A stretch of 64,000 nt of DNA from an uncultured Bacilli bacterium (GTDB taxonomy: Bacteria > Bacillota_I > Bacilli_A > RFN20 > CAG-449). The notes under the pieces were generated by a model. That model was not told where the DNA came from. It made no database searches and was given only the letters and a program-made list of their open reading frames with translations. Position numbers and translations under genes: made by a program. This document shows positions 25,262-54,304 of this stretch, one piece after another (position 1 is the first letter of the stretch; each line of letters starts with the position of its first letter). The DNA is taken from the NCBI GenBank assembly GCA_944332225.1, contig CALVJO010000003.1, positions 12,482 through 76,481 of the forward strand, in the 5' to 3' direction.

Positions 25262-25270
25262 GAGGGAAAT

Positions 25271-32060: not shown

Positions 32061-32513
32061 GTGGTAATGCAAATATTTTACGGAACCTACGTGTACCGAC
32101 TCGATGAAAAATCTCGCTTCGTTTTACCTCAGAAGATGCGCGATGCCATCGGCAGCAAATGTTACATTACCAAAGGCTTTGATAATTGCCTTTGTCTTTA
32201 CCCAGAAGAAACCTTTGTTGCTCTAAGCGAAAAGAACTCTCGACTCAACGACTTAATTCCAGAAGAAAGAAATTACAAAAGAACTTTCTTCGGTAGTTCC
32301 TCAGACTACACCTTGGATAAAGTTGGAAGAATCACCCTATCGAAGGATCATCTCCAACGGGCTAACATCGATAAAGATGTAGTGATAGTTGGAAACTTCG
32401 ACCACATCGAGATTTGGAGCAAAGACACTTACGACAAAATTTCTCTAAGCGATGATGAAAGCTATGAAGCCAACGCGAAGATCATCGGCGAGAAGAAGGA
32501 GAAAAATGTATAG
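32061..32513 (+). CDS. mraZ: Transcriptional regulator MraZ
   Basis: Two MraZ repeats (GTYVYRLDEKSRFVLP / VGRITLSKDHLQRANI). Precedes rsmH. Confidence 0.8.
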   Translation: MVMQIFYGTYVYRLDEKSRFVLPQKMRDAIGSKCYITKGFDNCLCLYPEETFVALSEKNSRLNDLIPEERNYKRTFFGSSSDYTLDKVGRITLSKDHLQRANIDKDVVIVGNFDHIEIWSKDTYDKISLSDDESYEANAKIIGEKKEKNV

Positions 32514-33441
32514 CCACGTCCCTGTACTCCTTGAAGAGACGATAGCTAACCTCAAGATTAACCCAAGCGGCATATACGTTGATGCTACGTTAGGACGAGG
32601 AGGCCATTCCTCGAGAATCCTGTCGCTTCTTGAAAACGGATTTCTCTACTGCTTCGATGTCGATAATCAAGCAATCAAAGATTCTGAGACGGTGCTGGCC
32701 AGCATTTCGAACCGTTTCGAAATCATCCATGAAAACTTCAGAAATTTAAAATCTGCATTAAGAGAAAGAAATGTCAATAAAGTCAATGGCTTCTTATTCG
32801 ATTTAGGAGTAAGTTCAGCTCAGTTTGACGAAGGTGATCGGGGATTTTCATATCGATACGACGCAAGATTAGATATGAGAATGAACCAAGAATCTAAATT
32901 AACAGCTTACGATGTTATTAACTTTTATTCAAAAGAGGATCTTAAAAGAATCTTCCTAGAATATGGCGAAGAGAAATATGCTTCTCAAATCGCCTCTTCT
33001 ATCGTAGGGAGAAGGCAAAGCAAACCGATTGAGACTACGTTTGAGCTCGTAGACATCATTAAATCTAGTCTTCCTTTCAAAGAATTACGTAAGAAAGGTC
33101 ATCCAGCTAAACAAGTATTCCAAGCCATTCGCATTGAAGTGAATGACGAGTTGAATGCTTTAAAAGATGGATTAGAAGACGCGATTAATATGTTAGAAAG
33201 AGGCGGACGTATCGCAGTTATAACTTTCCATTCCCTCGAGGACCGAATAGTTAAAAATCTATTCAAAAAGTATACTTATCCAGGCGAAGGGTCACGTACC
33301 TTGCCCCTAGAAATGAAACAAGTTGACTACATATTGGTTAACAAAAAAGTCATCTTGCCTAGTCCTAATGAGATAGAAGCTAACCCAAGAAGTCAAAGTG
33401 CAAAACTCAGAGTGATAGAAAGGAAGATGTATGAAGAATAA
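32506..33441 (+). CDS. rsmH: 16S rRNA m4C1402 methyltransferase RsmH (MraW)
   Basis: HVPVLL, DATLGRGGHS, FDLGVSS, ITFHSLEDR motifs. ATG at 32506 overlaps the mraZ stop, so the ORF-track start at 32452 is too early. Confidence 0.9.
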   Translation: MYSHVPVLLEETIANLKINPSGIYVDATLGRGGHSSRILSLLENGFLYCFDVDNQAIKDSETVLASISNRFEIIHENFRNLKSALRERNVNKVNGFLFDLGVSSAQFDEGDRGFSYRYDARLDMRMNQESKLTAYDVINFYSKEDLKRIFLEYGEEKYASQIASSIVGRRQSKPIETTFELVDIIKSSLPFKELRKKGHPAKQVFQAIRIEVNDELNALKDGLEDAINMLERGGRIAVITFHSLEDRIVKNLFKKYTYPGEGSRTLPLEMKQVDYILVNKKVILPSPNEIEANPRSQSAKLRVIERKMYEE

Positions 33442-33649
33442 ATTGATCAAATTCAACAAAACTAAATTCGATTACATTTGCTTCCAACTCGGGGTTTATG
33501 GTCTACTTATCTTTATCCTAATTACCTTCTTGATGGTTATCTGCTTGTTGGAAGCGGCAAAAACTGACACATATCAATTAGTTCAACTAGACACCATTTC
33601 TAAGACGAACCAAGTATCAGGTTGTTTAGGCGATAGAACTATCTATTAA
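33431..33649 (+). CDS. Small single-TM protein, possible FtsL-like division protein
   Basis: 72 aa with one TM (LGVYGLLIFILITFLMVICLL), at the position FtsL occupies after rsmH. Confidence 0.35.
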   Translation: MKNKLIKFNKTKFDYICFQLGVYGLLIFILITFLMVICLLEAAKTDTYQLVQLDTISKTNQVSGCLGDRTIY

Positions 33650-33667
33650 AAGAGAGGGGGTATTTCC

Positions 33668-33874
33668 ATGTCTAAAGTTGTAAAGATCATGGTTTCGATC
33701 GATGTTATCTTGTTAGCCTTGTTTATCGGCTACATCTTAATTCGAGCGTTCGTACCAAATGAAATATCATTGCCTCATTATTTACCTTACCTAATCTACA
33801 CCTTAATTGTCTTAACCTTATCAGCAGGGTTATATATATTAGATAGTAAGGTGGGGAAAAAAATATTTGACTAA
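33668..33874 (+). CDS. Small two-TM membrane protein
   Basis: 68-aa ORF with two hydrophobic helices and an SD (GAGAGGGGG). Confidence 0.3.
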   Translation: MSKVVKIMVSIDVILLALFIGYILIRAFVPNEISLPHYLPYLIYTLIVLTLSAGLYILDSKVGKKIFD

Positions 33875-33900
33875 AGTTTGCTCGATTGCAAACTTTTTTC
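33873..33900 (+). terminator. Intrinsic terminator
   Basis: AAAGTTTGC-TCGATT-GCAAACTTT perfect 9-bp stem followed by TTTTTTC. Confidence 0.7.
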
Positions 33901-33965
33901 TTTGATGGACGAATAATTAAAGTGAAATATTTATATTTATAAGCAGGGGAAATTATTGTAAAATT

Positions 33966-36512
33966 ATGAATATGGAAAAGACTCAATCAGCGAAGAAAAC
34001 TGTTATTAGAAGGTTAATTGGTTTAGGAGAAATCGCTTTAGCCATTTTAATAATTTATCTTGGTTTTTTAAGATTCGTTTTTGCTTATCTTTTCGGATGT
34101 TTATTTTTCTTAGTTTCCCTTTTCTTGCTTATCGATGGAGTCAACGCCTTAATCGTTCGTAAAAAGATTAAAATTATCTCTTTAACTGGAGCAATTTTAG
34201 TTTTTTTAGGGATTGTTATCTTGATATCATCTCCTAATAAATTAGAGCTAACGAATTTCTTTTCTAATTATCAGAATACGGTTAGTCTAGGAAATCAAAA
34301 TTTATCTTTTAGCTTTGAATTTATTTTTCAAAATCTTTATGGAGGTTTCGTTGGAGAATTTTTAGCAGCTTTACTCAATACTGTTTTTGGTAACTTAGCT
34401 ACGATTATAATCGGATCGATTTTATCATTTATCGGTTTTGTTCTTCTAATTTTAAATGCCTTTATCGATATTTATAAAAATTATAAGACCATCGATTTTG
34501 ATAAGATTAAAAGTCAAAAGAAAAAATCGGATGGCGAGATTAAAAATGATAGTTCTTTAAATGAGAAAAAAATAATTGAAACAGAAGAAAAAGAAAAAGT
34601 TAAAGATTTAAATTTAACTAATTTTGAAAATGAAATTGAGGCGTACGCTCCTAAAAAGAAAACCATAAATGAACCTATTTTAAATGATAGCAAAGCGAAT
34701 AATGAAGATACTCAAACTATTATTAAACCGTATACACAAGATTACTTTGAAGAAGTAGAACAAGATATTAAATCTAATGAATCGCTTAAAAACGATAATA
34801 TTGTCTCTCCATCTTCTCAAGATGATAATTCTCTCTATTCATCAAGAAAAGTAGCTCAAAATTCATATACCTTCACTGATTCTGATCAAAAAGATGTCTT
34901 TGATAAAATTGAGGAAGAAAATGTTATAAGAAGCAAAGAACGTCAAGAAAAAAATCAAAGACGATATGTCGATACCTTTAAAGATGATAAATTTTCTTCT
35001 TTCTTCTCAAATAAAGAAAAAGAAAATATTCAAGAACAAGCTGAAGAAGATTATTCTTCTTTACCATATGTTTTCCCATCTTTAGATCTTTTAAAAGATC
35101 GTCAAGTTACCACGAATCTTGCCGATAAGATTCAAACCGCGGATGAAAGAGCTAAAAAGATTAATGAATGCTTCCGTGATTTCCATATTGGAGCGATGGT
35201 AGTTTCCTATACGATTGGTCCATCGGTAACTAGATTTGATGTAAAACTTAATTCTAATGTTAAAACCTCAGTATTAAATAATTTAGAAACTGATTTAGGA
35301 GTTAGGCTTGAAGGAAATAAGACAGTTAGAATCGAAACCATCGTTGAAGGAAAAGACACCTGCGGAATTGAAGTTGGAAATAAAGTCTCAGATATCGTCT
35401 CTTTTAAAGATTGCATGCGAGCATTAGAATCTAATACCAAAGATAGATTGCTCTTCCCAGTTGGTAAAGATATCTCAGGCAATGTCATAATCGGAAAGCT
35501 CGATGATATGCCTCACTTATTAATCGCGGGAACCACGAACTCAGGTAAATCTATTTTTATCCATAATATCATCATGTCTCTTATCATGCGTAATAAGCCT
35601 GATGAGCTTAAATTAATGCTTCTTGATCCAAAGAAGGTAGAATTCGTTAAATATAATGAATTACCTCATCTTCTCTGCCCGATTGTTACCACGACTGAAC
35701 AAGGTAAAATCGCTTTAAAAACCTTAGTTCAAGAGATGGAAGATCGCTTTGACATGTTTGCTTTAAGAGGTGAAGGGGCAACATCGTATAAAGAATATTT
35801 AGAAGTATGCGAAGAACGCGGTTATAAAAAGATTCCATACATCGTTTTAATTATCGATGAGTTCGCTGATTTCATGGCAGAAGGAGATAAGGAGACTGCA
35901 AAATATATTCAAAGAATCGCCCAAAAGGCTAGAGCCTGCGGAATCTATATGATAATTGCTACTCAAAGACCATCTGCGAAAGTTATTACAGGTGAAATTA
36001 AAGCAAATATTCCTTCACGAGTTGCCCTTAGCGTCTCTCAAGCTCTTGAATCTAGAATCATCATCGATGAAGATGGCGCGGAGAACTTAGTAGGTAAGGG
36101 TGACTTACTTGCAAAACTCCCAACTTCTAAATCATTAATTAGAGCTCAATCAGCCTTCGTTGATTCAAAAGAGATCTATCAGGTGGTTCAGCATATTAAA
36201 AAATATGCAAAAGTTCATTACGACCCAAAATTTAATCTAGATATTAAAACTCCTTCAACTGGAACTTTAACAAATGATAATCGTTCATTTAGAGATGATG
36301 AATTATATGAGCAAGTTAAGACTTATGTTCTAGAAACTGGAAAATGCTCATCAACTAAGATCCAAAATGCCTTTAAAATAGGTTTTCCTCGCGCGGATGG
36401 AATTCTTGAAGCCCTTGAAGAAGATGGTATAATTAAAAAGGAAAATAATCATCGAGTGTTAGCGGATGAATATCGATTAGATTACGATGATTTCGATGAT
36501 GATGAGGAATAG
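33966..36512 (+). CDS. ftsK: DNA translocase FtsK/SpoIIIE
   Basis: 4 N-terminal TM helices, long linker, Walker A LIAGTTNSGKS, Walker B IIDEFADFMA, C-terminal gamma winged helix (GKCSSTKIQNAFKIGFPRADGILEALEEDGII). Confidence 0.9.
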   Translation: MNMEKTQSAKKTVIRRLIGLGEIALAILIIYLGFLRFVFAYLFGCLFFLVSLFLLIDGVNALIVRKKIKIISLTGAILVFLGIVILISSPNKLELTNFFSNYQNTVSLGNQNLSFSFEFIFQNLYGGFVGEFLAALLNTVFGNLATIIIGSILSFIGFVLLILNAFIDIYKNYKTIDFDKIKSQKKKSDGEIKNDSSLNEKKIIETEEKEKVKDLNLTNFENEIEAYAPKKKTINEPILNDSKANNEDTQTIIKPYTQDYFEEVEQDIKSNESLKNDNIVSPSSQDDNSLYSSRKVAQNSYTFTDSDQKDVFDKIEEENVIRSKERQEKNQRRYVDTFKDDKFSSFFSNKEKENIQEQAEEDYSSLPYVFPSLDLLKDRQVTTNLADKIQTADERAKKINECFRDFHIGAMVVSYTIGPSVTRFDVKLNSNVKTSVLNNLETDLGVRLEGNKTVRIETIVEGKDTCGIEVGNKVSDIVSFKDCMRALESNTKDRLLFPVGKDISGNVIIGKLDDMPHLLIAGTTNSGKSIFIHNIIMSLIMRNKPDELKLMLLDPKKVEFVKYNELPHLLCPIVTTTEQGKIALKTLVQEMEDRFDMFALRGEGATSYKEYLEVCEERGYKKIPYIVLIIDEFADFMAEGDKETAKYIQRIAQKARACGIYMIIATQRPSAKVITGEIKANIPSRVALSVSQALESRIIIDEDGAENLVGKGDLLAKLPTSKSLIRAQSAFVDSKEIYQVVQHIKKYAKVHYDPKFNLDIKTPSTGTLTNDNRSFRDDELYEQVKTYVLETGKCSSTKIQNAFKIGFPRADGILEALEEDGIIKKENNHRVLADEYRLDYDDFDDDEE

Positions 36513-38754: not shown

Positions 38755-39051
38755 ATGATAAATCATATCTCATTAAATGGCATCCTTAGACAGGTCGACG
38801 AAAAAAACAATATTCGTTATGTTGAGGTGGTTCGTTCCTATAAAAATGAACAAGGAATCTATCCATCAGACTTCTTCAAGGTGATGATGTGGTCACGAAA
38901 TGTGAACAATAAATTGTTCTCGTATAAAGAAGGGACGTTAGTCTCAATTGATGGAAGATTAGAAAATATTAATCAAGAGACGGTAATCGTCTGCGAATCG
39001 TTGATGTATATCGTTTCTAATGAAGTAGATTTTAATAAAAAAACTACTTAA
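38755..39051 (+). CDS. Short SSB-like OB-fold protein lacking the acidic C-terminal tail
   Basis: Pattern ISLNGILRQVDE...DFFKVMMWSRNVNN...KEGTLVSIDGRLEN follows the SSB OB-fold consensus (N.V.L.G.L..DPE / DFF.V..W / KG..V.V.GRL). Only 98 aa. Confidence 0.5.
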   Translation: MINHISLNGILRQVDEKNNIRYVEVVRSYKNEQGIYPSDFFKVMMWSRNVNNKLFSYKEGTLVSIDGRLENINQETVIVCESLMYIVSNEVDFNKKTT

Positions 39052-39817: not shown

Positions 39818-39875
39818 CGTTGCTTATATAAATGAAAGGGTTTTTATTATAAAATAAAATCAATAGGAGAAGGGC

Positions 39876-41285
39876 ATGAATTTATTTAAAAAATTACCAG
39901 ATAATTTTTTCTCTCTACTAGCCTCGAAGAATAAAAATGTCTACGGGATGGCTTTGCTTGTCCTGTATGATGCATTAAGCATGTATCGCGACAAAATTAG
40001 AAGAAGCGATTATGTTAGTTTGTTAAAAAATAGGCTCAGCGAAGAGATGTCTGATTTTGTTGAAGAAGATGAAAATCCGTTTGAAGATAAGGCTTCTTTA
40101 ATCGTTAGAAGATTAATAGAAACCGGATGGATCTATATTGATTATGATCCTGCCTTCATGACTGAATTTATTTTATTACCATCATATTCAGTCAACATGC
40201 TAAAAGTAATTAATGAATTTGCTTCATCAAGTCAGTCTAATTACGTCTCATACGTTCATACGACTTATGCGGACTTAAAAATTGAAGATGATTCACAAGA
40301 TGAATCGATGTATAAAGTTCTAGAAAATGCTTATCATAACACCCAACTTTTAGCCGTTGAGGTTATTAAGCTCGATCATTCTTTAAGAGTTTATAAACAT
40401 CAGTTAGGAAGCTTATATAATCCAAATGATGTTTTAAGACAGCATTTTGATATTTCTAGAGAAGATGTGATCGATCCGATTTACCATCCATTGAAGACTC
40501 ATGATTCGATAACTTTGTATCAAGGTCCGATTTCAGCGATTCTAAAAAAATGGCTCGAGGTCGATTCGGTTAGAGAAAAATTAATTGAACAATGCTTAAA
40601 AGAAAATCGAGATGTTAAAAATCGTTCTCAAGCGACTTCTTTGATCGTGAAGATGATAACTGAGATTCAGGATACATACTTTAAATTAGCAAATGAAATC
40701 AATAAAATCGATGTTGTTCAATCTGAATATGTTAAAGCCTCATCTGATAAAGTTATCTTTTTGAACAATCAAGATCGTTCCGTCAAAGGAAAATTAGAAA
40801 AGATAATCGCTGTTTTAGCCCGTAATATCAATGGCCCAGAAGAGACAAGAAAAGATTTTAATATCGTTAAATCTTTTGTTTCTTCAATCAAGTTATATAC
40901 TCAAGGATATTACGATAGCGATTCGCTTCGTTTCCCTTATTCAAGAAGTGAAAAGATCATAAGCGAGCCATTATCACTTTCTGATGATGATTATGAATTC
41001 AATGAAGATGCCTTCCTCTCTTCTCTTGAGGAAAACAAAAAGTTTTCAGATGATAATATCATGGCGTTCATGGCTTCGCAATTTAAGGGAAATGATTCAG
41101 TCGAAGTTAAGGATATGGAAATTAACTCGATGGATGATTTCTTATATTTGATTTTAGGAACTGTCAAGTTTGATTATGCTTCATCTTTCTATACTTTAGA
41201 AAGAGAGGATAAGCTTGATGTTAATATTCAATTAAATTCTAAAGTTAATGCGCCTAACTACACTTATAGAAAGAAGGAGAAATAG
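39876..41285 (+). CDS. Putative kleisin-like subunit (JetA/MksF-like) of an SMC-type complex
   Basis: 469-aa acidic soluble protein. First gene of a tightly coupled 469/207/1118-aa cassette whose sizes and order match JetA-JetB-JetC / MksF-MksE-MksB. Family is inferred from context only. Confidence 0.4.
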   Translation: MNLFKKLPDNFFSLLASKNKNVYGMALLVLYDALSMYRDKIRRSDYVSLLKNRLSEEMSDFVEEDENPFEDKASLIVRRLIETGWIYIDYDPAFMTEFILLPSYSVNMLKVINEFASSSQSNYVSYVHTTYADLKIEDDSQDESMYKVLENAYHNTQLLAVEVIKLDHSLRVYKHQLGSLYNPNDVLRQHFDISREDVIDPIYHPLKTHDSITLYQGPISAILKKWLEVDSVREKLIEQCLKENRDVKNRSQATSLIVKMITEIQDTYFKLANEINKIDVVQSEYVKASSDKVIFLNNQDRSVKGKLEKIIAVLARNINGPEETRKDFNIVKSFVSSIKLYTQGYYDSDSLRFPYSRSEKIISEPLSLSDDDYEFNEDAFLSSLEENKKFSDDNIMAFMASQFKGNDSVEVKDMEINSMDDFLYLILGTVKFDYASSFYTLEREDKLDVNIQLNSKVNAPNYTYRKKEK

Positions 41286-41909
41286 ATGCTAGAAGAATAT
41301 AATAATTTACGAGATATCGAAAAAGAAGAATTTGCTCATGTGGTAAATACCTTGCTTTTAAAAAGTTTTATTTTGAGAGATTACTATGATCGTAACGCGA
41401 AGATGACGCGCGCTTCAAAAGAATATACTTTCATCGAAAGAAATTTTGATTTAGTTTCTGATTATCTTCATCTCTCAGGATGGATTCTTGAAAAAGATTC
41501 CTCTAGGGGAGTCATCTCAATTAAAAATGAGTATCAAGAGAACCATCTTAAACTTGATTTAATCACTTCTTTAATGATTTTAGGCTTACGTTATTACTAT
41601 GAAACTAATTCTTCTACTGATGCCTTGCATGCGATGGTTCAACTTTCTTCTCAAGATTTAGTTACCATTTTAATTAACTTTAATTTGATTAGAAAAGATA
41701 AAAGACCATCATATGCTTCTTTAGGAGCCTCTTATCGTTTTCTTGAGCAGCATAATATCATTACAAGAATATCCGGAGATTTTAAAGAGAAGAATTTAAC
41801 ATTCTATATCAATCCTTCAATTGTCTTTGTCGTCGATTATGAAGTAATTCAATCATTATACAAAGAGATTGAACGAGCACCTGATGAGTTTATGGGGGAT
41901 AACTTATGA
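41286..41909 (+). CDS. Putative MukE/JetB/MksE-like subunit
   Basis: 207 aa. Start abuts the upstream stop and the stop overlaps the downstream start (ATGA). Size and position match MksE/JetB. Confidence 0.4.
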   Translation: MLEEYNNLRDIEKEEFAHVVNTLLLKSFILRDYYDRNAKMTRASKEYTFIERNFDLVSDYLHLSGWILEKDSSRGVISIKNEYQENHLKLDLITSLMILGLRYYYETNSSTDALHAMVQLSSQDLVTILINFNLIRKDKRPSYASLGASYRFLEQHNIITRISGDFKEKNLTFYINPSIVFVVDYEVIQSLYKEIERAPDEFMGDNL

Positions 41910-44900
41910 AAAAACTAACTAAATTTAGATTGATCAATTGGCATTATTTTCAAAATATTGAAGTAAAATTTGGAATGATCAACTTTCTAACCGGGGTCAC
42001 CGCGGCTGGAAAATCAACCATGATCGACGCGATGCAGGTTATTTTATTAGGTGATACTTTAGGTAGGTCATTTAATAAGGCGGCGAATGAGAAATCTTCG
42101 CGTACTTTAAAAGGATACCTTCGTTGCGAAGTCGGAGACAATCCTGATGGATCGACTCGTTATTTAAGAAATGGTAGATTCACTTCCTATATCGCAATGG
42201 AATTTTATGATGATGTCGCGGAGCATCCGTTCTCTATCGGTATCGTCTTTGATGTCTTTGATGATGGAAGCGAGCAACATAAATTCTTCTATTTAGATGA
42301 TGGGTTCCCAGAGAATCATTTTATTGAAGATAAGATTCCTCTTTCTTATAAGAGCTTAGCTGAGTATCTTCAAGTTAATTATCCGGGAAAATATACTTTC
42401 TTTGATACTTCGGTTAGATATCGAGAGATGATCAAAGAGAAGTTTGGTAACTTAAAAGATAAATATTTTAGCTTATTTAAAAAAGCTGTCTCTTTCCAAC
42501 CTATCTCTGATATTGAGCAATTCATCACTGAATATGTCTGCGATGTTCCATCTCAAATCAATATCGATTCGATGAATGAAAATATTAAATCTTATGAAAG
42601 ATTGAAGATTCAAGCTGATGATATGCGAATTAAAATCGCTGCATTAGAGAAGATTCAAGCTGTTTATTCTAAGATCGTTGAAAAGAGAAATGAGCAAAAT
42701 TTAGCTTCTTATATTTCGAAAAGAACTAATTTAGAGATTATTAGACAGAGAATTGATAACTTGCATAAAGAAAAATTTTCATGCGAAGCTAGAATTCAAG
42801 AAATCGAACAAGAGATCATTGAAATTGATACCCAAATTAATGATTTAAATAACTCTAAAGAAAGATTGATCGCTCATAAGTTTTCTAATGATTCATATAA
42901 ATTGAATCAGGAATTAGAGAATGCTTATGAAGAAAGCAAACGAAAGATGGAAGAGATCCAATCTCGGTTGAACTCTTTATATAAAAATATCACCGTCTAC
43001 TGTAATCAGTTTTATGGCTATGCGACAAAAGTTAATGTCTTAGCCGATAAAGCTAGAGAAAATATCGATGATGCTTCATTAGAGGATTCTTTAAAGCATC
43101 TATCTCTTGAATCAATCAATTTGATTAGAAAATTAGATGAATTAAAGGACGCGATTACTTCTTATTCTTTAACTGAAGATGATTTTAAAGTTTTCTCTAA
43201 GGCGATTATCGATTTTAAAAATGTAATGATCGAAGAATACGCGGTGGTAAGAAATATTGTTGGAAAAATCATCAATCAACTTTCTCAACAAAAACAAATC
43301 TTACAAACTTCTTCTTCAGGTAAATATTATGATGAAGCTTTCTTAAGAGTGAAAAATCAGCTTTCGATTGCTCTAGAAGACCATTTCCATAAGAAAGTAG
43401 ATGTCTCAGTTTATGCTGATTTAGTTGATATCAAAGATAAATCTTGGACTAACGCGATTGAAGCTTATATCTATTCTCAAAAGATTTATATGTTCGTCGA
43501 TGATGAATATTATCTCTATGCCAATAAGATTTTACCTTCAATCATGCGCAATAATCGCTTCACGAGAACCGGTTTAGTCGACTCTAGAAAATTAAGAGAA
43601 AAGAATTTTATATCTTCTCAAGATTCTTTAGCGGAAGAAATCATAACCGACCATCAAGGCGCGAGAGATTACACGAATTATCTATTAGGTAATTTAAAGA
43701 AATGCGATACCTTTGAAGAAGCCCGTGAATCAGGAAGAGGTATTTTAAAAACCTGTCAAGGATATCAAAACTTTACCTCATTCTATTTTGATGAAGGGCG
43801 TTATCGTTATCCTTTAATCGGAAGAAAAGTAACAAAAGAAGATAGAGAAAAACGTTTGAGATCTCTTGAAAAAGAAAGTCTTTCTTTAGAAGCATTAAAA
43901 GAATTAAACGATACTTTAGCTCTTTCTAAATCGATGGAAGTCATGTCAACTTCCGAGCAACAAATGTGTATTGAAGGTTTATCTAGCGGCTTCTTACTCG
44001 ATAATTTAAAGAAGAATGTCGAGCAATATCGTCAGGAAATCGAAGATAATTCCTCTCAAGATATCAAAACTATCGATAACAAGATTAAAAATATCGACTC
44101 CGATATCTCAACTTTAAATAAGCGTAAAGAAGAGTTGATAACCGAAAAAGGATCATTAGACAACCAAATCAAGAATATTCAAGAAGATCGCTTGAAACAA
44201 GAAACTCAACGACAAGTCGATATCGATAATGAAATCAATGATTCATTTGACCATGATTTTATCGAAGGAGTTTGTAAAACTACCTACGATCAAGAGATTT
44301 TAACTTCGAATATTCCTTCTATAAGAGCTAAATACGATGAAATATATTCTAAAGCTCAATACTCATTACGTAATTTAAAAGAAGAGATTAAGGATTTAAG
44401 AACTACATATGTGGTAACTAATAAGCTATCTTATGATATTTCAAAAGAAGATAACTCTGATTTTGATAATGAATTATATCATTTAAGAGAGATTGAATTA
44501 CCAAAATATCTCATTCAAATTCAAGATGCTTACGATAAAGCTGTCAGCGAATTTAAAAATGATTTCATCGTTAAACTAAGAACATCTATCGTAGAAGCTA
44601 GAATTCAAATTAATGAATTGAATCAAGCTTTAAAAGATTTTAAATTCGGTAACGACGTCTTTGAATTCACCGTATCACCTAACCCTCAATATATCGATTA
44701 TTATAATATGATCACCGATGAGACTTTATTAGAAGGTGGTATCGATGATTCTCAGTTCTTAGCTAAGTATCAAGATGTCATGGATAGTTTATTTAGGCTT
44801 ATTTCTGATGATGGAGGAAGCAAGGATCGTTCCGGGAAGGTGGAACAAAATATTCTTAAATACACAGACTTCAAGTCATATTTATTCTTTGATTTAAAGA

Positions 44901-45262
44901 TTAAAAAGCCTGATGGTTCGATAAATTCCTTATCTAGAAATATTAAAAAGGCTTCAGGAGGTGAAACTCAAACACCTTTCTATATCTCAATATTAGCCTC
45001 ATTTAGCCAACTTTATCGGGTGAATTCCTCACCTTCATTATCAAATTGCATCAGATTAGTGCTTTTCGATGAAGCTTTTTCAAAAATGGATAGAAATAGA
45101 ATCATCGAATCTATTAAAATATTAAAAGATTTTGGCTTACAAGCCATCATCTCTGCTCCACCTGAGAAAGTTAATGATATCTCATCATTAGTTGATTCAA
45201 ACTTAACAGTTACTAGAACCAACAATATTTCTCACGTCGACAGCTTTGTTTATAAGGAGTAA
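41906..45262 (+). CDS. MukB/JetC/MksB-like SMC ATPase
   Basis: N-terminal FRLINWHYFQNIEVKF...FLTGVTAAGKST (compare MukB LTLINWNGFF...LSGGNGAGKST). ~800 aa of heptad-rich coiled coil. C-terminal signature ASGGETQ, Walker B LVLFDEAFSKMD, D-loop. Confidence 0.75.
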   Translation: MKKLTKFRLINWHYFQNIEVKFGMINFLTGVTAAGKSTMIDAMQVILLGDTLGRSFNKAANEKSSRTLKGYLRCEVGDNPDGSTRYLRNGRFTSYIAMEFYDDVAEHPFSIGIVFDVFDDGSEQHKFFYLDDGFPENHFIEDKIPLSYKSLAEYLQVNYPGKYTFFDTSVRYREMIKEKFGNLKDKYFSLFKKAVSFQPISDIEQFITEYVCDVPSQINIDSMNENIKSYERLKIQADDMRIKIAALEKIQAVYSKIVEKRNEQNLASYISKRTNLEIIRQRIDNLHKEKFSCEARIQEIEQEIIEIDTQINDLNNSKERLIAHKFSNDSYKLNQELENAYEESKRKMEEIQSRLNSLYKNITVYCNQFYGYATKVNVLADKARENIDDASLEDSLKHLSLESINLIRKLDELKDAITSYSLTEDDFKVFSKAIIDFKNVMIEEYAVVRNIVGKIINQLSQQKQILQTSSSGKYYDEAFLRVKNQLSIALEDHFHKKVDVSVYADLVDIKDKSWTNAIEAYIYSQKIYMFVDDEYYLYANKILPSIMRNNRFTRTGLVDSRKLREKNFISSQDSLAEEIITDHQGARDYTNYLLGNLKKCDTFEEARESGRGILKTCQGYQNFTSFYFDEGRYRYPLIGRKVTKEDREKRLRSLEKESLSLEALKELNDTLALSKSMEVMSTSEQQMCIEGLSSGFLLDNLKKNVEQYRQEIEDNSSQDIKTIDNKIKNIDSDISTLNKRKEELITEKGSLDNQIKNIQEDRLKQETQRQVDIDNEINDSFDHDFIEGVCKTTYDQEILTSNIPSIRAKYDEIYSKAQYSLRNLKEEIKDLRTTYVVTNKLSYDISKEDNSDFDNELYHLREIELPKYLIQIQDAYDKAVSEFKNDFIVKLRTSIVEARIQINELNQALKDFKFGNDVFEFTVSPNPQYIDYYNMITDETLLEGGIDDSQFLAKYQDVMDSLFRLISDDGGSKDRSGKVEQNILKYTDFKSYLFFDLKIKKPDGSINSLSRNIKKASGGETQTPFYISILASFSQLYRVNSSPSLSNCIRLVLFDEAFSKMDRNRIIESIKILKDFGLQAIISAPPEKVNDISSLVDSNLTVTRTNNISHVDSFVYKE

Positions 45263-45263
45263 T

Positions 45264-45740
45264 ATGGATTTAACGTGTTCTTTAATTTATCTTGCAATAT
45301 TCCTATTGATCTTAATCATTGTATTTTTTATCCTGCAATTGCTATTTAGAAGGACGCGTTTAATCACGGTTTTCTTTGGTATCTTACTTTTATCAAATTT
45401 AACCTTATTAGCTATCAATAATTGGTTTGGAGATATATTTAATGTAGTAATCGATCAAAATAATAATCTTACCGTCAATGTTGATTTCTTACTTTACTGT
45501 ACAAAAAATGTCTTAACTATTATTTCTCTACCGATTACTTTATTTCATACTTTATTCACCAGCGTCATTTTAAATATCTTCTCTACTTTCATGGAAGATA
45601 TTCAGATAGTCTATGATATTTTATCTTGGAATAATTATTATATGCTAGTTTTCTATCTAGTGATGTTCGTTCTCTGCTTGATTCTCTTTAGAAAAAAGAA
45701 AAAGAGAAAATCTTTAGCTAATTCACGTTATGATGATTAA
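45264..45740 (+). CDS. Hypothetical polytopic membrane protein (4 predicted TM)
   Basis: ATG at 45264 with AAGGAG SD right after the JetC-like stop. Four hydrophobic helices, basic C-terminus KKKKRK. Confidence 0.45.
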   Translation: MDLTCSLIYLAIFLLILIIVFFILQLLFRRTRLITVFFGILLLSNLTLLAINNWFGDIFNVVIDQNNNLTVNVDFLLYCTKNVLTIISLPITLFHTLFTSVILNIFSTFMEDIQIVYDILSWNNYYMLVFYLVMFVLCLILFRKKKKRKSLANSRYDD

Positions 45741-45742
45741 TA

Positions 45743-46639
45743 ATGGAGAAGTTTGATTTAAGGTTAGATCAATTAAAATATCAAAAAGTCTCGTCGTTTT
45801 TAAGATTGGTGATCTTCTTTGCTTTAGGCAATGTTTTATTGATTATCATCGTGCAGATCATCAATTTTATCATTTATCGACAAGACTTTTTTATCTTCGA
45901 TGATTTTGTCTTCTTTGCTTTTGGTCTTGGAGAGATTCCTTTAATTATTCTACTTATAATTTATTATGTGTATCTCGATAGAAAGTTCATTAATAATTAT
46001 GTTGAAACTCTGATATCCGAAGTTAGATTAGAAGATATATATTTTTTGAAAAATACTCCACCTAAGCAGGAAGAATTAATTAATCATTTAAAGAAAATAT
46101 TCTTTTTAAAGAAAATTGATTATTACCAAGGATATTCTTTAGCCTCGACTTCTCTAGCTATCGATTTATTTAATGTTAAATATAACGATAATATAAAGGT
46201 AAATAAAGGAATGTTAATCATCTTAAATTTCAATATTGATAAAGATTTATTCCTTCAGATTTGTAAAGAGAATTTCTATGCATCGCGATATTATGAAAAT
46301 GATGAGATTAATCGTTATGGATTTAACAATAAAAATAAAGTTTTGACTTATAATGTCTATTCTAATTCAAACTATGTATATTCAATCATCTCTAATGAAG
46401 GAAAAAAATATTTTAAAAATTTAATTAATTACTTAAAATCGGAAGTTAATATCGTTTTAGATGATGGAACATTATTTATTTTAGTAAAAAAATTTAAAAT
46501 TAAGACTTACAATCATCTCTACAAATTCATCACCAGCGAAGTCTTCGATGAAAAAATCTTAGCTATAAAGCATCTAAATGACTATCTATTTGAATTAGCT
46601 AACTATTTACAAAAGCTTCTCGAAAATTTTGAAAAATAA
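45743..46639 (+). CDS. Hypothetical membrane-anchored protein (2 N-terminal TM + ~200-aa soluble domain)
   Basis: Start overlaps the previous stop (TAATG), same operon. No recognised motif. Confidence 0.45.
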   Translation: MEKFDLRLDQLKYQKVSSFLRLVIFFALGNVLLIIIVQIINFIIYRQDFFIFDDFVFFAFGLGEIPLIILLIIYYVYLDRKFINNYVETLISEVRLEDIYFLKNTPPKQEELINHLKKIFFLKKIDYYQGYSLASTSLAIDLFNVKYNDNIKVNKGMLIILNFNIDKDLFLQICKENFYASRYYENDEINRYGFNNKNKVLTYNVYSNSNYVYSIISNEGKKYFKNLINYLKSEVNIVLDDGTLFILVKKFKIKTYNHLYKFITSEVFDEKILAIKHLNDYLFELANYLQKLLENFEK

Positions 46640-46718
46640 CTTTATAAAAATTATCATTTATTGAAACGGACAATTAACTATTTTATAATCTTTAAGGAAA
46701 TCGAAAGGATTGGTTTTT

Positions 46719-51424: not shown

Positions 51425-53056
51425 ATGCTAGTTTCTTTAAAAATCACAAACTACGCTTTAATTGAGTCTTTGTCATTGCAATTTGATTCTCCTTATCTAG
51501 GTTTTATCGGCCCTTCCGGCGCAGGTAAATCTTTAATAATCGAATCTCTTACTTTATTAAAAGGAATTAAAGGTGACGTCTCAAAAATTAGAAAAGGAGA
51601 AAGCTATTTAGAAGTGGAAGGAAAATTCATCGCTTCTAAATTTAATGAGGAAAAGTTTATTTCTAGATTTAATGATACAAAAGTTCTTGTATCTAGAAAG
51701 ATAGATTCAAAAGGAAGAAACACGATCAAGATTAATCATAAAGTAGCCACCTTGAATGAATTAAAAGAAAAATTTAATGATTTAATTGATTTTCATAGTC
51801 AAATTTCTGATTCACGTTACCTTGCTTCTTATGATGATCTTTTAGATTTTTATATTAATTTAAAAGCATCTGTTAATGAAAAGAATCACTTTTTAGAATA
51901 TAAAAATAATCTAAAAACATATAAAGAAAATTTAAAAAATATCGAAGAATTAGAAGAGAAAAAACAAGATATCGGCTCATTAGAAAACTTAAAGAATAGA
52001 ATCGATGAATTAGAGAATCTTCAAATCAAAGAAGATGAGATGGAACATCTTGAAGAAGAGAAATTAAACCTTCAAAACTTTAAAAAAGATTTAAATGATT
52101 ATCAGAGCTTTTTATCAAATTTTGAGGAGATTACTAGCTCTTTATCCTCTTGTAAAAATGCTATTTTAAGAATTAATGATTCGGAGATTGAACCTCTTCA
52201 AAATCGCTTTAATGAATCATATTATGAATTAATCGATATCAAAAACGAAGTTGAAAATAAGTATTCTTCGATGCAGGAAAGAATTGACTACCTTCAAAAT
52301 ATCGAAGAAAGATTATATCTTTTACATTCTTTAAGAAAGCGATATGGTTATTCTACTAAAGAAATCCTAGAGTCATTAGAGAATTTAAAAGAAGATTATC
52401 AAGATTTTTCTACCTTAGATTCTCGTTTAGATGAATTAAAAGAAGATAACGAAATTCTATTTCAAAGATTAAATGATCTTTCTTCTAATATTCTTCATAA
52501 GATTAGAGAAAAATATAGTTTATCATTAGAGGAAGAAATTAACTCTTCTTTAAAGCGATTAGGCTTCTTCAATTCATCTTTTAAGGTTAGTTTAGAGACT
52601 TCTTCTTCTTTTTTAGAAAATGGAAATGATATAGTTACCTTTTTACTTCAGGCTAATAAAGGAGAAAATTATCTTCCTTTAGCAAAATCAGCATCTTTAG
52701 GTGAATCATCTAGATTAAATTTTGCCTTAAAATACGTCTTTAATAAATGCATTCCTCCAGAGCTAATCATCTTTGATGAGATCGATGTTGGTTTATCTCA
52801 AGAGATGGGAATTTCCTTAGGAAAAATGATGTTAGAATTAAAAGATTATTCAATGATTATTTTAATATCTCACCTTCCTTCCTTAACCGCGTCTTTAAAT
52901 GATATTTATTTAGTTTCTAAAGAAGTAATCAATGATCGTACCTTAACCATCTGTAAGAAAGCTAAGAAAGAAGAAAAAGTAGAGATAATCGCTTCGATGA
53001 TATCATCATCTAATGGGTTAGAAGCCGCGAACAGCCTTATTTTACAATATCAATAA
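51425..53056 (+). CDS. recN: DNA repair protein RecN
   Basis: LKITNYALIESLSLQF, Walker A GPSGAGKSLII, long coiled coil, C-terminal signature and Walker B (IIFDEIDVG). Confidence 0.85.
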   Translation: MLVSLKITNYALIESLSLQFDSPYLGFIGPSGAGKSLIIESLTLLKGIKGDVSKIRKGESYLEVEGKFIASKFNEEKFISRFNDTKVLVSRKIDSKGRNTIKINHKVATLNELKEKFNDLIDFHSQISDSRYLASYDDLLDFYINLKASVNEKNHFLEYKNNLKTYKENLKNIEELEEKKQDIGSLENLKNRIDELENLQIKEDEMEHLEEEKLNLQNFKKDLNDYQSFLSNFEEITSSLSSCKNAILRINDSEIEPLQNRFNESYYELIDIKNEVENKYSSMQERIDYLQNIEERLYLLHSLRKRYGYSTKEILESLENLKEDYQDFSTLDSRLDELKEDNEILFQRLNDLSSNILHKIREKYSLSLEEEINSSLKRLGFFNSSFKVSLETSSSFLENGNDIVTFLLQANKGENYLPLAKSASLGESSRLNFALKYVFNKCIPPELIIFDEIDVGLSQEMGISLGKMMLELKDYSMIILISHLPSLTASLNDIYLVSKEVINDRTLTICKKAKKEEKVEIIASMISSSNGLEAANSLILQYQ

Positions 53057-53095
53057 AGACATATCATAAATCTAAAAATAAAGTATAATATAGCT

Positions 53096-54304
53096 ATGGA
53101 AAGCTATGTGATGGAGAAATATATTTGTCATATCGATTTAAATATGTTTTTTGCCGCGGCTCAGATCTTATTAGAACCGGAGTTAGAAGGTAAACCGTTG
53201 ATTATAGCCTCATCTTCAAGAAGAGGAATTGTTTCAACCGCGTCTTATGAAGCTAGAAAATACGGCATACATTCCGCGATGCCGACTTATCAGGCTAAAT
53301 TATTATGTAAGAATCTTGAGATTAGAAAGCCAAATTTTGCTTTATATCAAAGCTTATCTAATACTTTCTTTACCTATATTAAAGAACATTATTCTTCGAT
53401 CCTTGAGCAAGCTTCCATCGATGAAGCCTATATCGATTTAACTGATTATATAAAGCAAAATAAGGTTTCATCAAGGGATGATTTATATTCTCTATTAAAG
53501 GAGATTCAAGATACTTTATTAAAAGAGACTAAACTAAAGTGCTCGATTGGCTTAGGGCCGACGAGATTCTTAGCTAAAATGGGCTCAGATTATAAAAAAC
53601 CTTTAGGTATCACCATCATCAATAAAGATGATATCAAGAGAATGATTTATCCTTTAAAGATCGAAGATTTTTATGGAATTGGTAAGAGAAGTTATCCAAA
53701 GCTTCATACTTTAGGAATCTATTCTATTGAAGATTTTGCTTTAAATAAGTCTCCATTAATCAAAAAAATGTTCGGTAAATATTATGAAGAGATGATATCT
53801 AATCTTGAAGGGACCTCATCAAGTGAGATTAAAGTTGATCGAGGACAGGCAAAATCAATATCTTCATCGTCGACATTTGAATATGATACGGATTCTTATG
53901 AAGAGATTAGAGAGATGATCTTAAATAAATCTATGGAAGTAGCCTCCGATTTAAAAAAGCAGCATTTGATGGGAAAGACTATTAGTTTAATAATTAAAGA
54001 TTATCGATTTAAATCATTTTCTCGATCGTTAACTATCGATTCTTACGTCAATGATTATTTATCAATCTATGAAACTTGCATGGAACTATATGATAAAGAA
54101 TTTACTGATTGTTTGATTAGATTGGTAGGGGTTGGGGTTTCTTCATTGATTAATGAAAAGGATAACGTTAAGCAAGTCGATATATTTGAAGAGAAAAGTA
54201 AAGTAAAAACCTCACCTCAACTATTGGTAAAGCAGCTTAATTACAAGAATAATAAAGAAATATTTATTCTTGCTAAAGACTTAAATAAAGGAAAAAAAAG
54301 ATGA
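53096..54304 (+). CDS. dinB: DNA polymerase IV (Y-family)
   Basis: ICHIDLNMFFAAAQ catalytic motif, SIDEAYIDLT, little-finger domain. Confidence 0.85.
   Translation: MESYVMEKYICHIDLNMFFAAAQILLEPELEGKPLIIASSSRRGIVSTASYEARKYGIHSAMPTYQAKLLCKNLEIRKPNFALYQSLSNTFFTYIKEHYSSILEQASIDEAYIDLTDYIKQNKVSSRDDLYSLLKEIQDTLLKETKLKCSIGLGPTRFLAKMGSDYKKPLGITIINKDDIKRMIYPLKIEDFYGIGKRSYPKLHTLGIYSIEDFALNKSPLIKKMFGKYYEEMISNLEGTSSSEIKVDRGQAKSISSSSTFEYDTDSYEEIREMILNKSMEVASDLKKQHLMGKTISLIIKDYRFKSFSRSLTIDSYVNDYLSIYETCMELYDKEFTDCLIRLVGVGVSSLINEKDNVKQVDIFEEKSKVKTSPQLLVKQLNYKNNKEIFILAKDLNKGKKR

What the first reader, a model, noticed from the sequence alone, without database searches (positions are those of the whole stretch)
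39876..45262. Wadjet/MksBEF-like SMC cassette (kleisin-like + MukE-like + MukB-like ATPase) with no JetD/MksG Toprim nuclease, in a Mollicute-like genome
Three translationally coupled genes of 469, 207 and 1118 aa. The adjacent start/stop codons overlap (41285/41286 and ATGA at 41906-41909). The large protein has an unmistakable MukB/JetC head. Its N-terminal FRLINWHYF...GVTAAGKST aligns with MukB LTLINWNGFF...GGNGAGKST. About 800 aa of coiled coil follows, then a C-terminal ABC signature ASGGETQ, Walker B LVLFDEAF and a D-loop. Gene order and sizes fit the JetA-JetB-JetC (MksF-E-B) blueprint. The fourth Wadjet gene, the Toprim nuclease JetD/MksG, is absent. In described Wadjet that nuclease executes circular-DNA cleavage. 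The slot after the ATPase is instead filled by two uncharacterised membrane proteins. Either this is a plain MukBEF-type condensin, which would be unusual for a small wall-less genome that presumably also has SMC-ScpAB, or it is a Wadjet-like defence module with a different effector. The second case may be previously undescribed.
Basis: partly seen in the sequence, partly recalled or inferred. Interest (0 to 1): 0.8.

Follow-up and report, generated by a model that had tools for sequence, protein, structure and literature searches.

The report
Nuclease-free Wadjet (JetABC) SMC operon
This is a complete type I Wadjet JetA-JetB-JetC DNA-motor operon that has lost its JetD nuclease and is inherited vertically among housekeeping genes in a group of low-GC gut Bacilli, so it most likely folds DNA like MksBEF/MukBEF instead of cutting plasmids; this kind of event is already known from other bacteria.

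Summary
The ORFs at 39876-41285, 41286-41909 and 41906-45262 are full-length JetA, JetB and JetC of type I Wadjet (PADLOC 3e-100, 3e-61, E=0). No JetD-like sequence occurs anywhere in the 64-kb window.

The same JetD-less operon sits at conserved housekeeping positions in 66 of the 80 best species-level genome hits, all uncultured Bacilli MAGs. Fourteen hits, mostly Clostridia-type, keep a canonical JetD1 directly downstream. JetC distances track LeuS distances (r=0.82). In most close genome pairs dN/dS is 0.02-0.09. The genes are therefore old, vertically inherited and functional.

One nested sublineage has deleted jetABC cleanly, so the operon is dispensable.

The two downstream membrane genes are co-operonic here. 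One is 158 aa and starts at ATG 45264, not TTG 45246. The other is a divergent DUF3137-like protein. Most JetD-less relatives lack them. They evolve about 3 times faster than JetC and have no invariant residue, so an effector role is not supported.

Best reading (0.55): a domesticated, nuclease-free Wadjet that works like MksBEF, which the literature already derives from JetABCD by JetD loss. I could not test whether Smc-ScpAB is also present. This is a new member of a known kind, of moderate interest.

The parts
39832..39860 (+). Weak promoter-like site (ATGAAA-17-TAAAAT) in the 58-nt gap between plsC and jetA. An AGGAGA ribosome-binding site lies just before the ATG at 39876.
   Evidence: This is a consensus match only (9 of 12) and is not evidence of function.
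39876..41285 (+). jetA: kleisin-like subunit, 469 aa, of the JetA/DUF5716 family.
   Evidence: Pfam PF18982 JetA 1e-73, covering profile positions 2-416 of 434. PADLOC JetA1 3e-100, positions 1-461 of 464. dN/dS in JetD-less relatives is 0.03-0.07.
41286..41909 (+). jetB: KITE/MukE-like subunit, 207 aa, DUF4194. Its start abuts the jetA stop, and its TGA stop overlaps the jetC ATG.
   Evidence: Pfam DUF4194 5e-17. PADLOC JetB1 3e-61. Junctions read.
41906..45262 (+). jetC: SMC-type ATPase, 1118 aa. Layout: N-head, arm, hinge, arm, C-head.
   Evidence: PADLOC JetC1 E=0, 1030 bits, full length. The AlphaFold2 model has pLDDT 79.6. The best structural matches are Wadjet JetC and MukB.
41993..42019 (+). 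Walker A motif of JetC (G30-VTAAGKST-38).
   Evidence: G35, K36, S37 and T38 are invariant in 28 homologs at 40-100% identity.
43388..43825 (+). Hinge domain of JetC (about residues 495-640).
   Evidence: It is a mixed alpha/beta globular block between the two arm helices in the model. There is a dense run of invariant columns from 505 to 639. Pfam SMC_hinge gives a weak hit at 504-608 (E 0.13). SMC hinge structures are hit by Foldseek.
44954..45073 (+). ABC signature SGGETQ (residues 1017-1022) through Walker B LVLFDE (1051-1056) of JetC.
   Evidence: S1017, G1018, G1019, E1020, D1055 and E1056 are invariant. Pfam SbcC_Walker_B 1.4e-21.
45264..45740 (+). Small membrane protein, 158 aa from ATG 45264 (the mechanical ORF starts at TTG 45246). 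It has 3-4 hydrophobic segments, a basic tail and a C-terminal SRYDD motif. It is found only in the window's subclade.
   Evidence: The start was read. Hydropathy and 12 homologs are. It has no Pfam, PADLOC or NCBIfam match. Its amino-acid divergence is about 3 times that of JetC.
45743..46639 (+). Membrane protein of 298 aa with two N-terminal transmembrane helices and a C-terminal domain of about 200 aa. It is a divergent DUF3137-like protein.
   Evidence: Seven of 17 family members match Pfam DUF3137, but the window copy does not. No column is invariant. Only 15 homologous clusters exist among 1.84 billion representatives. The most divergent of these again lies right after jetABC.
46661..46689 (+). 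Strong promoter-like site (TTGAAA-17-TATAAT, 11 of 12) ahead of leuS. It marks the likely 3' limit of the five-gene unit.
   Evidence: This is a consensus match only.

Best explanation
The locus encodes a complete type I Wadjet motor with three subunits: JetA (kleisin), JetB (KITE dimer) and JetC (SMC ATPase with a hinge). An ancestor of a large group of uncultured low-GC gut Bacilli lost the JetD Toprim nuclease, and the operon has since been inherited vertically at housekeeping positions. By analogy with characterised JetABC, MksBEF and MukBEF, the complex should load on DNA and use ATP hydrolysis to extrude or hold DNA loops. Without JetD it cannot carry out the circular-DNA cleavage that defines Wadjet immunity. 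I therefore think it acts as an accessory, nuclease-free DNA-organising complex of the MksBEF kind, working on the chromosome and possibly on other replicons. Shown: the identity of the three proteins, the absence of JetD, vertical descent, purifying selection and dispensability. Inferred: loop extrusion and the chromosomal role. The two membrane genes are co-transcribed here. They are most likely lineage-specific passengers, or at most localisation factors, not effectors.
For: Identity: full-length matches to JetA1, JetB1 and JetC1. The JetC model has an SMC layout with a hinge, and its best structural matches are Wadjet JetC and MukB. The ATPase motifs are invariant in 28 homologs.

JetD absence: nothing in the window at E<=10. 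JetD is found only in 14 loci, mostly Clostridia-type, out of 90, and the ORF in one of them is JetD1 at 1e-134. Among 80 species-representative genomes, 50 lack JetD with at least 1.3 kb on both sides (median 7.9 and 10 kb), and 16 more lack it with one short flank.

Core-genome, vertical inheritance: the flanks are housekeeping genes, namely ftsK-pulA-ssb-like-plsC upstream and leuS, glgCDA or rpmB elsewhere. There is no compositional anomaly. JetC and LeuS pairwise distances correlate at r=0.82, with 0 of 2000 Mantel permutations reaching that value. No close relative is plasmid-borne.

Function retained long after JetD loss: dN/dS is 0.02-0.09 for jetA, jetB and jetC in most close JetD-less pairs, with one pair at 0.16-0.28.

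Against: No functional data exist. I could not determine whether these genomes also carry Smc-ScpAB, so 'accessory' versus 'sole condensin' remains open. I also could not rule out a JetD or another nuclease encoded far from the operon. Two related species have exactly the same synteny (rpmB-157aa-glgCDA-leuS) without jetABC and nest inside the jet-bearing clade. The complex is therefore dispensable, and that presence/absence pattern is also what an accessory defence gene would show. The JetABC proteins evolve about 1.5 times faster than LeuS. The tight five-gene packing with two membrane genes is unexplained.
Confidence: 0.55

Rival explanations
1. It is still an anti-plasmid defence system. 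JetABC senses small circular DNA by loop extrusion, and cleavage or silencing is carried out by a nuclease encoded elsewhere in the genome: an unlinked JetD or another enzyme recruited in trans.
For: All three proteins belong to the type I Wadjet families used to detect defence systems. The operon is dispensable and cleanly missing from a nested sublineage, as accessory defence genes often are. In other JetD-less relatives (L082, L084) a GajB-like UvrD helicase follows jetC, so alternative partners do occur.
Against: In every JetD-bearing relative found, jetD lies immediately downstream of jetC. None lies within about 8-10 kb in 50 JetD-less species or in the 64-kb window. The position is a conserved housekeeping neighbourhood, not a variable island, and inheritance is vertical. 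JetB in JetD-less Bacilli lacks the N-terminal Trp, and it lacks the acidic (I/V)IRGE tail seen in many JetD-linked JetB proteins. This last point is only suggestive.
Confidence: 0.2
2. This is the first reader's second option: a Wadjet-like module in which the two membrane proteins replace JetD as effectors or anchors. For example, they might tether or sequester captured circular DNA at the membrane, or cause membrane damage on activation.
For: The five genes are packed as one unit. The jetC stop is two bases from the next ATG, there is a two-base gap to the 298-aa gene, and a strong promoter follows only before leuS. The block jetABC plus a roughly 150-aa gene plus a roughly 300-aa gene stays contiguous in at least 16 species while both flanks change. 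The most divergent detectable homolog of the 298-aa protein, looked up independently of JetC, again lies after jetABC. Wadjet components are reported to localise at the poles in C. glutamicum (PMC10586767).
Against: Most JetD-less relatives have neither gene, and jetC runs straight into glgC. Either gene can be missing on its own (L015, L008). In L004 the homolog of the 298-aa gene overlaps the glgC start, so tight packing is a general feature of these genomes. The 298-aa family has no invariant residue. Both genes evolve 2.5-3.5 times faster than JetC. Neither matches any defence-protein model.
Confidence: 0.1
3. JetABC has replaced Smc-ScpAB as the only condensin of this lineage. This would be an independent repeat of the MukBEF replacement in gamma-proteobacteria.
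For: The operon has been retained for a long time, in a core position and under strong purifying selection, in genomes that look reduced. No SMC, ScpA or ScpB was seen in about 1.8 Mb of fetched sequence, but that is an uninformative sample.
Against: A nested sublineage deleted jetABC cleanly and persists as an abundant organism found on 21 contigs. That is hard to reconcile with a sole condensin, unless that lineage kept Smc-ScpAB or does without one. Smc-ScpAB presence was not tested.
Confidence: 0.12
4. It is a decaying remnant of a Wadjet system with no current function, or it is a misassigned SMC-like repair or defence ATPase such as RecN, SbcC or LmuB.
For: JetD is missing. There are weak secondary hits to LmuB (4e-07) and Rad50/SMC models.
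Against: The ORFs are intact and full-length in about 70 species. dN/dS is 0.02-0.09 in most close pairs. The ATPase motifs are invariant. JetC1 scores E=0 against 4e-07 for LmuB. A separate RecN is encoded at 51425-53056.
Confidence: 0.02

Closest known systems
Type I Wadjet, JetABCD (e.g. E. coli GF4-3 JetABCD, PDB 8as8/8q72; P. aeruginosa PA14 JetABC, PDB 8dk2; the Bacillus cereus Q1 system is cited from my own knowledge)
   Same: The three motor subunits belong to the same families, are in the same order (jetA-jetB-jetC) and are translationally coupled. JetC has an SMC head-arm-hinge layout with intact ATPase motifs. The best PADLOC model (PDLC00519) is the same one that best matches canonical JetD-linked relatives.
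   Different: There is no JetD nuclease in the operon, in the window, or near the operon in about 66 related species. The location is a conserved housekeeping neighbourhood with vertical descent. Sequence similarity to solved JetC is low (phmmer 4e-10, about 11-12% identity in structural alignments).
MksBEF of Pseudomonas aeruginosa (Muk-like SMC condensin without MksG)
   Same: It is a kleisin + KITE + SMC complex of the Wadjet/Mks lineage that lacks the nuclease. The literature regards it as derived from JetABCD by JetD loss and as acting on the chromosome (PMC10586767).
   Different: The lineage and host differ (type I JetABC of Firmicutes). I did not compare the sequences directly, because no MksB structure or sequence was available in the tools. 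A chromosomal role is shown for Pseudomonas and only inferred here. Pseudomonas also has Smc-ScpAB; that is unknown here.
MukBEF of Escherichia coli and related gamma-proteobacteria
   Same: The architecture is the same, and MukB is among the best structural matches (9gm6, 2e-22). It has no nuclease and does a housekeeping job.
   Different: MukBEF replaced Smc-ScpAB and is near-essential. Here the operon is dispensable in at least one sublineage. Pfam MukB matches only weakly (E 0.012, below the cut-off).
MksBEFG / EptABCD of Corynebacterium glutamicum and Mycobacterium smegmatis
   Same: These are Wadjet-family SMC complexes encoded on the chromosome.
   Different: They keep the MksG/JetD nuclease, which carries out plasmid restriction (PMC10123090). 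That subunit is missing here.

Membership tests
Wadjet type I defence system (JetABCD) | JetA subunit (DUF5716 / PF18982 kleisin-like protein) | tested here: met
   Pfam 1e-73 and PADLOC JetA1 3e-100, both full-length.
Wadjet type I defence system (JetABCD) | JetB subunit (DUF4194, MukE-like KITE) | tested here: met
   Pfam 5e-17 and PADLOC JetB1 3e-61.
Wadjet type I defence system (JetABCD) | JetC SMC-type ATPase with Walker A, signature, Walker B, coiled-coil arms and a hinge | tested here: met
   PADLOC JetC1 E=0. The motifs are invariant. The AlphaFold2 layout and Foldseek matches to JetC and MukB agree.
Wadjet type I defence system (JetABCD) | JetD Toprim nuclease (JetD_C/DUF2220) encoded with the operon | tested here: not met
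   A JetD HMM finds nothing in the six-frame translation of the window at E<=10. It recovers JetD in 14 control loci, mostly Clostridia-type. The control ORF is JetD1 at 1e-134. The rest of the genome was not searched.
Wadjet type I defence system (JetABCD) | Restriction of small circular plasmids by ATP-dependent cleavage | not testable with these tools
   This needs transformation or cleavage assays.
MksBEF/MukBEF-type nuclease-free bacterial condensin | A kleisin + KITE + SMC operon with no associated nuclease | tested here: met
MksBEF/MukBEF-type nuclease-free bacterial condensin | Stable chromosomal, vertically inherited gene set under purifying selection | tested here: met
   Synteny; JetC-LeuS distance correlation r=0.82; dN/dS 0.02-0.09 in most close pairs. 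However, it was lost cleanly in one nested sublineage.
MksBEF/MukBEF-type nuclease-free bacterial condensin | Acts on chromosome organisation or segregation | not testable with these tools
   This needs Hi-C, ChIP, cytology or complementation.
MksBEF/MukBEF-type nuclease-free bacterial condensin | Relationship to Smc-ScpAB in the same genome (coexists or replaces) | not tested
   The tools give no whole-genome access. Probes found no SMC, ScpA or ScpB in the roughly 1.8 Mb fetched around jetABC, which is uninformative.
Lamassu LmuB / RecN / SbcC-Rad50 (alternative SMC-like ATPases) | Best match to those families; no kleisin or KITE partners; zinc hook or short coiled coil | tested here: not met
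   LmuB scores 4e-07 against E=0 for JetC1. The Rad50 and SMC NCBIfam scores are far below their cut-offs. JetA and JetB partners are present, and the protein has a hinge, not a hook.
DUF3137 (PF11335) membrane proteins, for the 298-aa gene | A match to PF11335, with two N-terminal transmembrane helices and a C-terminal domain | tested here: inconclusive
   The window copy has no Pfam match. Seven of 17 aligned family members match (best 2e-08). The topology fits. The structure prediction failed (pLDDT 37).

The most novel reading that the evidence does not exclude
The five-gene unit is a nuclease-free Wadjet derivative coupled to the membrane. JetABC would still recognise small circular DNA by complete extrusion. 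Instead of cutting it, the complex would hand it to, or be anchored by, the 158-aa and 298-aa membrane proteins. This would sequester plasmids or position the complex at the membrane, giving a non-nucleolytic mode of SMC-based DNA immunity or DNA positioning.
Probability: 0.1. Interest if true: 0.8.

Novelty: new member of a known kind. Interest (0 to 1): 0.45.

Why it matters
The SMC field proposes that chromosome-folding complexes such as MksBEF and MukBEF arose from Wadjet defence systems by loss of the nuclease. Only a few instances are discussed. This locus adds a large, naturally replicated example within type I, the type that is best understood biochemically. It comprises dozens of species with a JetD-less operon fixed at housekeeping positions under strong purifying selection. 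JetD-bearing relatives at 34-38% JetC identity and a nested lineage that lost the operon provide built-in controls. That makes the domestication hypothesis testable by comparative genomics (does Smc-ScpAB co-occur?) and by simple heterologous assays. It is also a practical warning for defence-system annotation: JetABC hits without JetD in these gut Bacilli should not be counted as Wadjet immunity.

Tried and rejected
(1) Looking for Smc-ScpAB. Only RecN and JetC P-loop hits came back. The tools give no whole-genome access, so the question stays open.

(2) Literature searches for RF39/RFN20 chromosome-segregation genes, or for Firmicutes lacking SMC, found nothing relevant.

(3) The word-indexed homolog search with the 298-aa protein found only a 98%-identical copy. 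Its structure prediction from that two-sequence alignment was unusable (pLDDT 36.9), so no fold search was made. The 17-member alignment could not be used for prediction, because its sequences came from loci and the tool turned it away.

(4) The terminator scan found no + strand terminator within or after the operon, so the limits of the transcription unit rest only on gene spacing and promoter-like sites.

(5) Phmmer of JetA and JetB against PDB sequences found nothing. Their assignment rests on Pfam and PADLOC profiles.

(6) I considered the conserved divergent gene of about 150-170 aa upstream of jetA in the '40% clade' as a possible partner. I rejected it because it stays in place next to rpmB in the two genomes that lack jetABC.

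(7) I considered a recent horizontal acquisition. I rejected it on composition, synteny, distance correlation with LeuS and the lack of close plasmid relatives.

(8) The midpoint-rooted NJ tree of JetC does not resolve whether JetD was lost once or several times in Bacilli. JetD-less members inside the JetD-bearing clade (L070, L081, L082/L084, L087/L090) show that loss has happened repeatedly.


Full report
OBSERVATION. The window carries three co-directional ORFs at exactly the reported coordinates: 39876-41285 (469 aa), 41286-41909 (207 aa) and 41906-45262 (1118 aa). The jetA stop TAG is followed directly by the jetB ATG, with an AAGGAG eight bases upstream. The jetB stop and jetC start share ATGA. 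The quoted motifs are all present.

The profile searches leave no doubt about identity. In Pfam, JetA scores 1e-73 (profile positions 2-416 of 434), DUF4194 scores 5e-17, and AAA_29 plus SbcC_Walker_B match the large protein. In PADLOC, JetA1 scores 3e-100, JetB1 3e-61 and JetC1 E=0 (1030 bits, residues 1-1117). LmuB reaches only 4e-07. NCBIfam SMC, Rad50 and TIGR02680 scores are far below their cut-offs.

An AlphaFold2 model of JetC, built on 28 homologs, has a mean pLDDT of 79.6. It shows an N-terminal head (1-215), an arm (221-494), a globular hinge (about 495-640), a return arm (644-909) and a C-terminal head (917-1113). Its best PDB matches are Wadjet JetC (9qe0 at 6.6e-26; also E. coli 9qxu/8q72 and PA14 8dk2) and MukB (9gm6 at 2e-22). 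SMC hinge structures are also hit.

IS JetD REALLY MISSING? I scanned the GTDB species-representative genomes with an alignment of JetC homologs. This found 548 relatives, and the best 80 were fetched with up to 10 kb on each side. In 14 loci, mostly of Clostridia-type genomes (Caldicoprobacter, Thermoclostridium, Fervidicola, Peptococcaceae and others), an ORF of about 410-430 aa follows jetC. One of these matches Pfam JetD_C at 3.5e-28 and PADLOC JetD1 at 1.2e-134.

An HMM built from nine of these proteins recovers all 14 of these JetD-bearing loci. It finds nothing in the six-frame translation of the whole 64-kb window, or in any other locus, even at E<=10. Fifty species lack JetD with at least 1.3 kb on both sides (median 7.9 kb upstream, 10 kb downstream). 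Sixteen more lack it with one short flank. Reading all window ORFs shows ordinary housekeeping genes and no unassigned ORF of JetD size. The rest of the genome could not be examined.

WHO HAS IT, AND WHERE? The JetD-less loci come from uncultured gut and environmental Bacilli. Their records are labelled 'Bacilli', 'Bacillales' or 'Erysipelotrichaceae bacterium', Candidatus Onthovivens, Candidatus Enterosoma, Firmicutes CAG:449 and Clostridium CAG:568. NCBI places the named genera in Bacilli incertae sedis. The closest genome has 61% JetC identity (L016).

The operon always sits among housekeeping genes, in three recurrent contexts:
- ftsK-pulA-(ssb-like)-plsC-jetABC-[~150 aa]-[~300 aa]-(glgCDA)-leuS. 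This is the window's clade, with JetC identity of at least 47%.
- priA...rlmN-prpC-prkC-rsgA-rpe-rpmB(-)-[~155 aa](-)-jetABC-glgCDA-leuS. This clade has about 40% identity.
- plsC-jetABC-glgCDA. This clade has about 36% identity.

GC content across the operon (0.32-0.33) matches the surroundings. JetA has no close plasmid-borne relatives: three hits at 20-25% identity.

Across 27 genomes that have both genes on the fetched locus, JetC and LeuS pairwise distances correlate at r=0.82, and 0 of 2000 Mantel permutations reach that value. JetA, JetB and JetC each diverge about 1.5 times faster than LeuS. In most closely related JetD-less pairs, dN/dS for jetA, jetB and jetC is 0.02-0.09. One pair gives 0.16-0.28. 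Walker A, the signature motif and Walker B are invariant. The JetD-less operon is therefore ancient, vertically transmitted and functional. It is not a relic.

IS IT UNIVERSAL? To sample without reference to JetC, I searched with the window's LeuS and looked at five LeuS-centred loci:
- One (74% identity) has the full plsC-jetABC-158aa-302aa-leuS block.
- One is cut at glgC and is uninformative.
- One is an outgroup with a PBP and no jet genes.
- Two (68-69% identity) show rpmB(-)-[157/172 aa](-)-glgCDA-leuS with nothing between. That is exactly the site where relatives carry jetABC. No remnant is detectable.

In a LeuS tree, one of these jet-less genomes (L093) nests inside the jet-bearing clade. 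L094 was not in the tree, but it shares L093's gene order. The absence is therefore most simply a secondary clean deletion. Whether jetABC lies elsewhere in those two genomes could not be checked. On this evidence JetABC is dispensable in this group. That argues against a sole, essential condensin. It fits an accessory complex.

THE TWO MEMBRANE GENES. The first most likely starts at ATG 45264, preceded by AAGGAG and two bases after the jetC stop. This gives 158 aa. Its homologs start similarly (MDLL.., MDIA.., MDGL..). They have 3-4 hydrophobic segments, a basic tail and an acidic/aromatic C-terminus (SRYDD, EEDYF, DYDE). This gene occurs only in the window's subclade.

The second gene (45743-46639) has two N-terminal transmembrane helices and a C-terminal domain of about 200 aa. 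It has no Pfam match itself, but 7 of 17 aligned relatives match DUF3137. No alignment column is invariant. An exhaustive search of 1.84 billion cluster representatives finds only 15 homologs. The most divergent of these, looked up on its own, again lies directly after jetABC and a 162-aa gene.

In the window the five genes are packed without gaps, and a strong promoter-like site appears only before leuS. They probably form one transcript. The block stays contiguous in at least 16 species while both flanks change.

Several points argue against an effector role. Most JetD-less relatives have neither gene. Either gene can be missing alone (L015, L008). In L004 the 312-aa homolog overlaps the glgC start, so tight packing is general in these genomes. 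Both genes accumulate amino-acid changes 2.5-3.5 times faster than JetC in the same genome pairs. Neither matches any defence model. A role in localisation cannot be excluded. Structure prediction for the 298-aa protein failed (pLDDT 37).

MECHANISM. In characterised type I Wadjet, JetABC is a dimer of SMC motor units that extrudes DNA. On small circles the motors stall, and a JetD dimer docks on the JetC 'larynx' and cleaves (10.1101/2023.11.03.565488; PMC10586767). Here the motor is complete and conserved, but the only catalytic DNA-cutting subunit has been absent for a long evolutionary time.

The most economical reading is a nuclease-free loop-extruding or DNA-holding complex that acts on the host chromosome. 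[quoted passage not shown]

One small sequence observation points the same way. All JetD-linked JetB proteins begin MW..., and many carry an acidic C-terminal tail with an (I/V)IRGE motif. The JetD-less Bacilli proteins begin MF or ML and lack the tail motif. In E. coli an N-terminal JetB helix is predicted to contact the JetD aCAP domain. This is suggestive only.

I put 0.55 on the MksBEF-like reading, 0.20 on defence with an unlinked nuclease, 0.10 on a membrane-protein effector or anchor, and about 0.12 on replacement of Smc-ScpAB.

COMPARISON AND NOVELTY. The locus passes every membership test for the JetA, JetB and JetC families. It fails the test for the defining fourth Wadjet component, so it should not be filed as a Wadjet defence system. 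It meets the structural definition of an MksBEF/MukBEF-type nuclease-free complex, but its chromosomal role is untested. The concept 'Wadjet minus JetD gives a condensin' is already in the literature, so this is a new member of a known kind. Its features of interest are the type I origin, the breadth of the clade, the core-genome position and the natural controls.

I score it 0.45. The score would rise substantially if a whole-genome census showed that Smc-ScpAB is absent, or if the membrane proteins proved to bind the complex.

LIMITS. The NJ trees use simple distances and are midpoint- or outgroup-rooted. The number of JetD losses is not resolved. Promoter and terminator calls are consensus matches only. 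All organism labels are those of the submitters. Statements about GTDB orders (RF39, RFN20) would rest on my memory and are not used as evidence.

Noticed in passing
L093:5657-6289 and L094:5647-6303 (relatives; the equivalent site in L009/L010 holds jetABC): Two related species have the same rpmB(-)-[~160 aa](-)-glgCDA-leuS synteny but no jetABC and no remnant of it. L093 nests inside the jet-bearing clade in a LeuS tree, so this is most simply a clean secondary deletion of the whole operon. L094 was not included in that tree.
   Followed up: yes
L082:13520-15601 and L084:13525-15606: In two fecal Bacilli MAGs, jetC is followed by a 693-aa UvrD-type helicase instead of JetD. It matches Gabija GajB models (1.7e-16) and has an unassigned N-terminal region of about 180 aa. 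This may be a different partner for JetABC.
   Followed up: partly
JetB alignment of the window and 35 loci; window 41286-41909: All JetD-linked JetB proteins start MW..., and eight of 14 carry an acidic C-terminal tail with a conserved (I/V)IRGE motif. JetD-less Bacilli JetB proteins start MF or ML and have short tails without the motif. The motif may be a JetD-contact peptide that decayed after JetD loss.
   Followed up: partly
window 51425-54304, compared with L095:15662-20603 and L002:20563-23289: In relatives, recN is followed by a SpoIVB-type peptidase (S55). L095 also has spo0A before dinB; L002 ends before that point. In the window, recN is followed directly by dinB. The window's organism seems to have lost these sporulation genes, and the group is not Mollicutes in the strict sense.
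   Followed up: partly
window 32061-36512: The division-cluster start mraZ-rsmH-(72-aa FtsL-like ORF) runs straight into ftsK, with no pbp, mur, mraY or ftsW genes. ftsA-ftsZ lie separately at 24059-26392. This fits a reduced or absent cell-wall gene set, but only this window was read.
   Followed up: no
window 38755-39051: A 98-aa OB-fold protein with a borderline SSB match (Pfam 8.5e-06) and no acidic C-terminal tail. It is conserved (31-55% identity) just upstream of plsC-jetABC in the window's clade.
   Followed up: no
window 45264-45740 and homologs in L001, L002, L004, L011, L012, L014-L016, L031, L055, L063, L065: The small membrane protein family ends in a lysine/arginine-rich stretch followed by a conserved acidic/aromatic C-terminus (SRYDD, SRYSD, EEDYF, SDYEE, DDYDE). 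The rest of the protein is almost unconserved. It looks like a short linear motif with an unknown partner.
   Followed up: no
L081:9974-15522, L070, and L087/L090: JetD-less jetABC operons also occur inside or next to the JetD-bearing clade. Examples are Peptococcaceae BRH_c4b, where jetC is followed by a Na/Pi cotransporter, and Erysipelotrichaceae MAGs, where it is followed by rsmE and mtaB. JetD loss has therefore happened more than once.
   Followed up: partly
L009:7375-7857(-), and its homologs upstream of jetA in about 20 loci: A conserved gene of about 150-170 aa is transcribed divergently between rpmB and jetA. It is probably a membrane protein (weak DUF2232 hit). It remains in place in the genomes that lack jetABC, so it is not part of the system.
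   Followed up: yes
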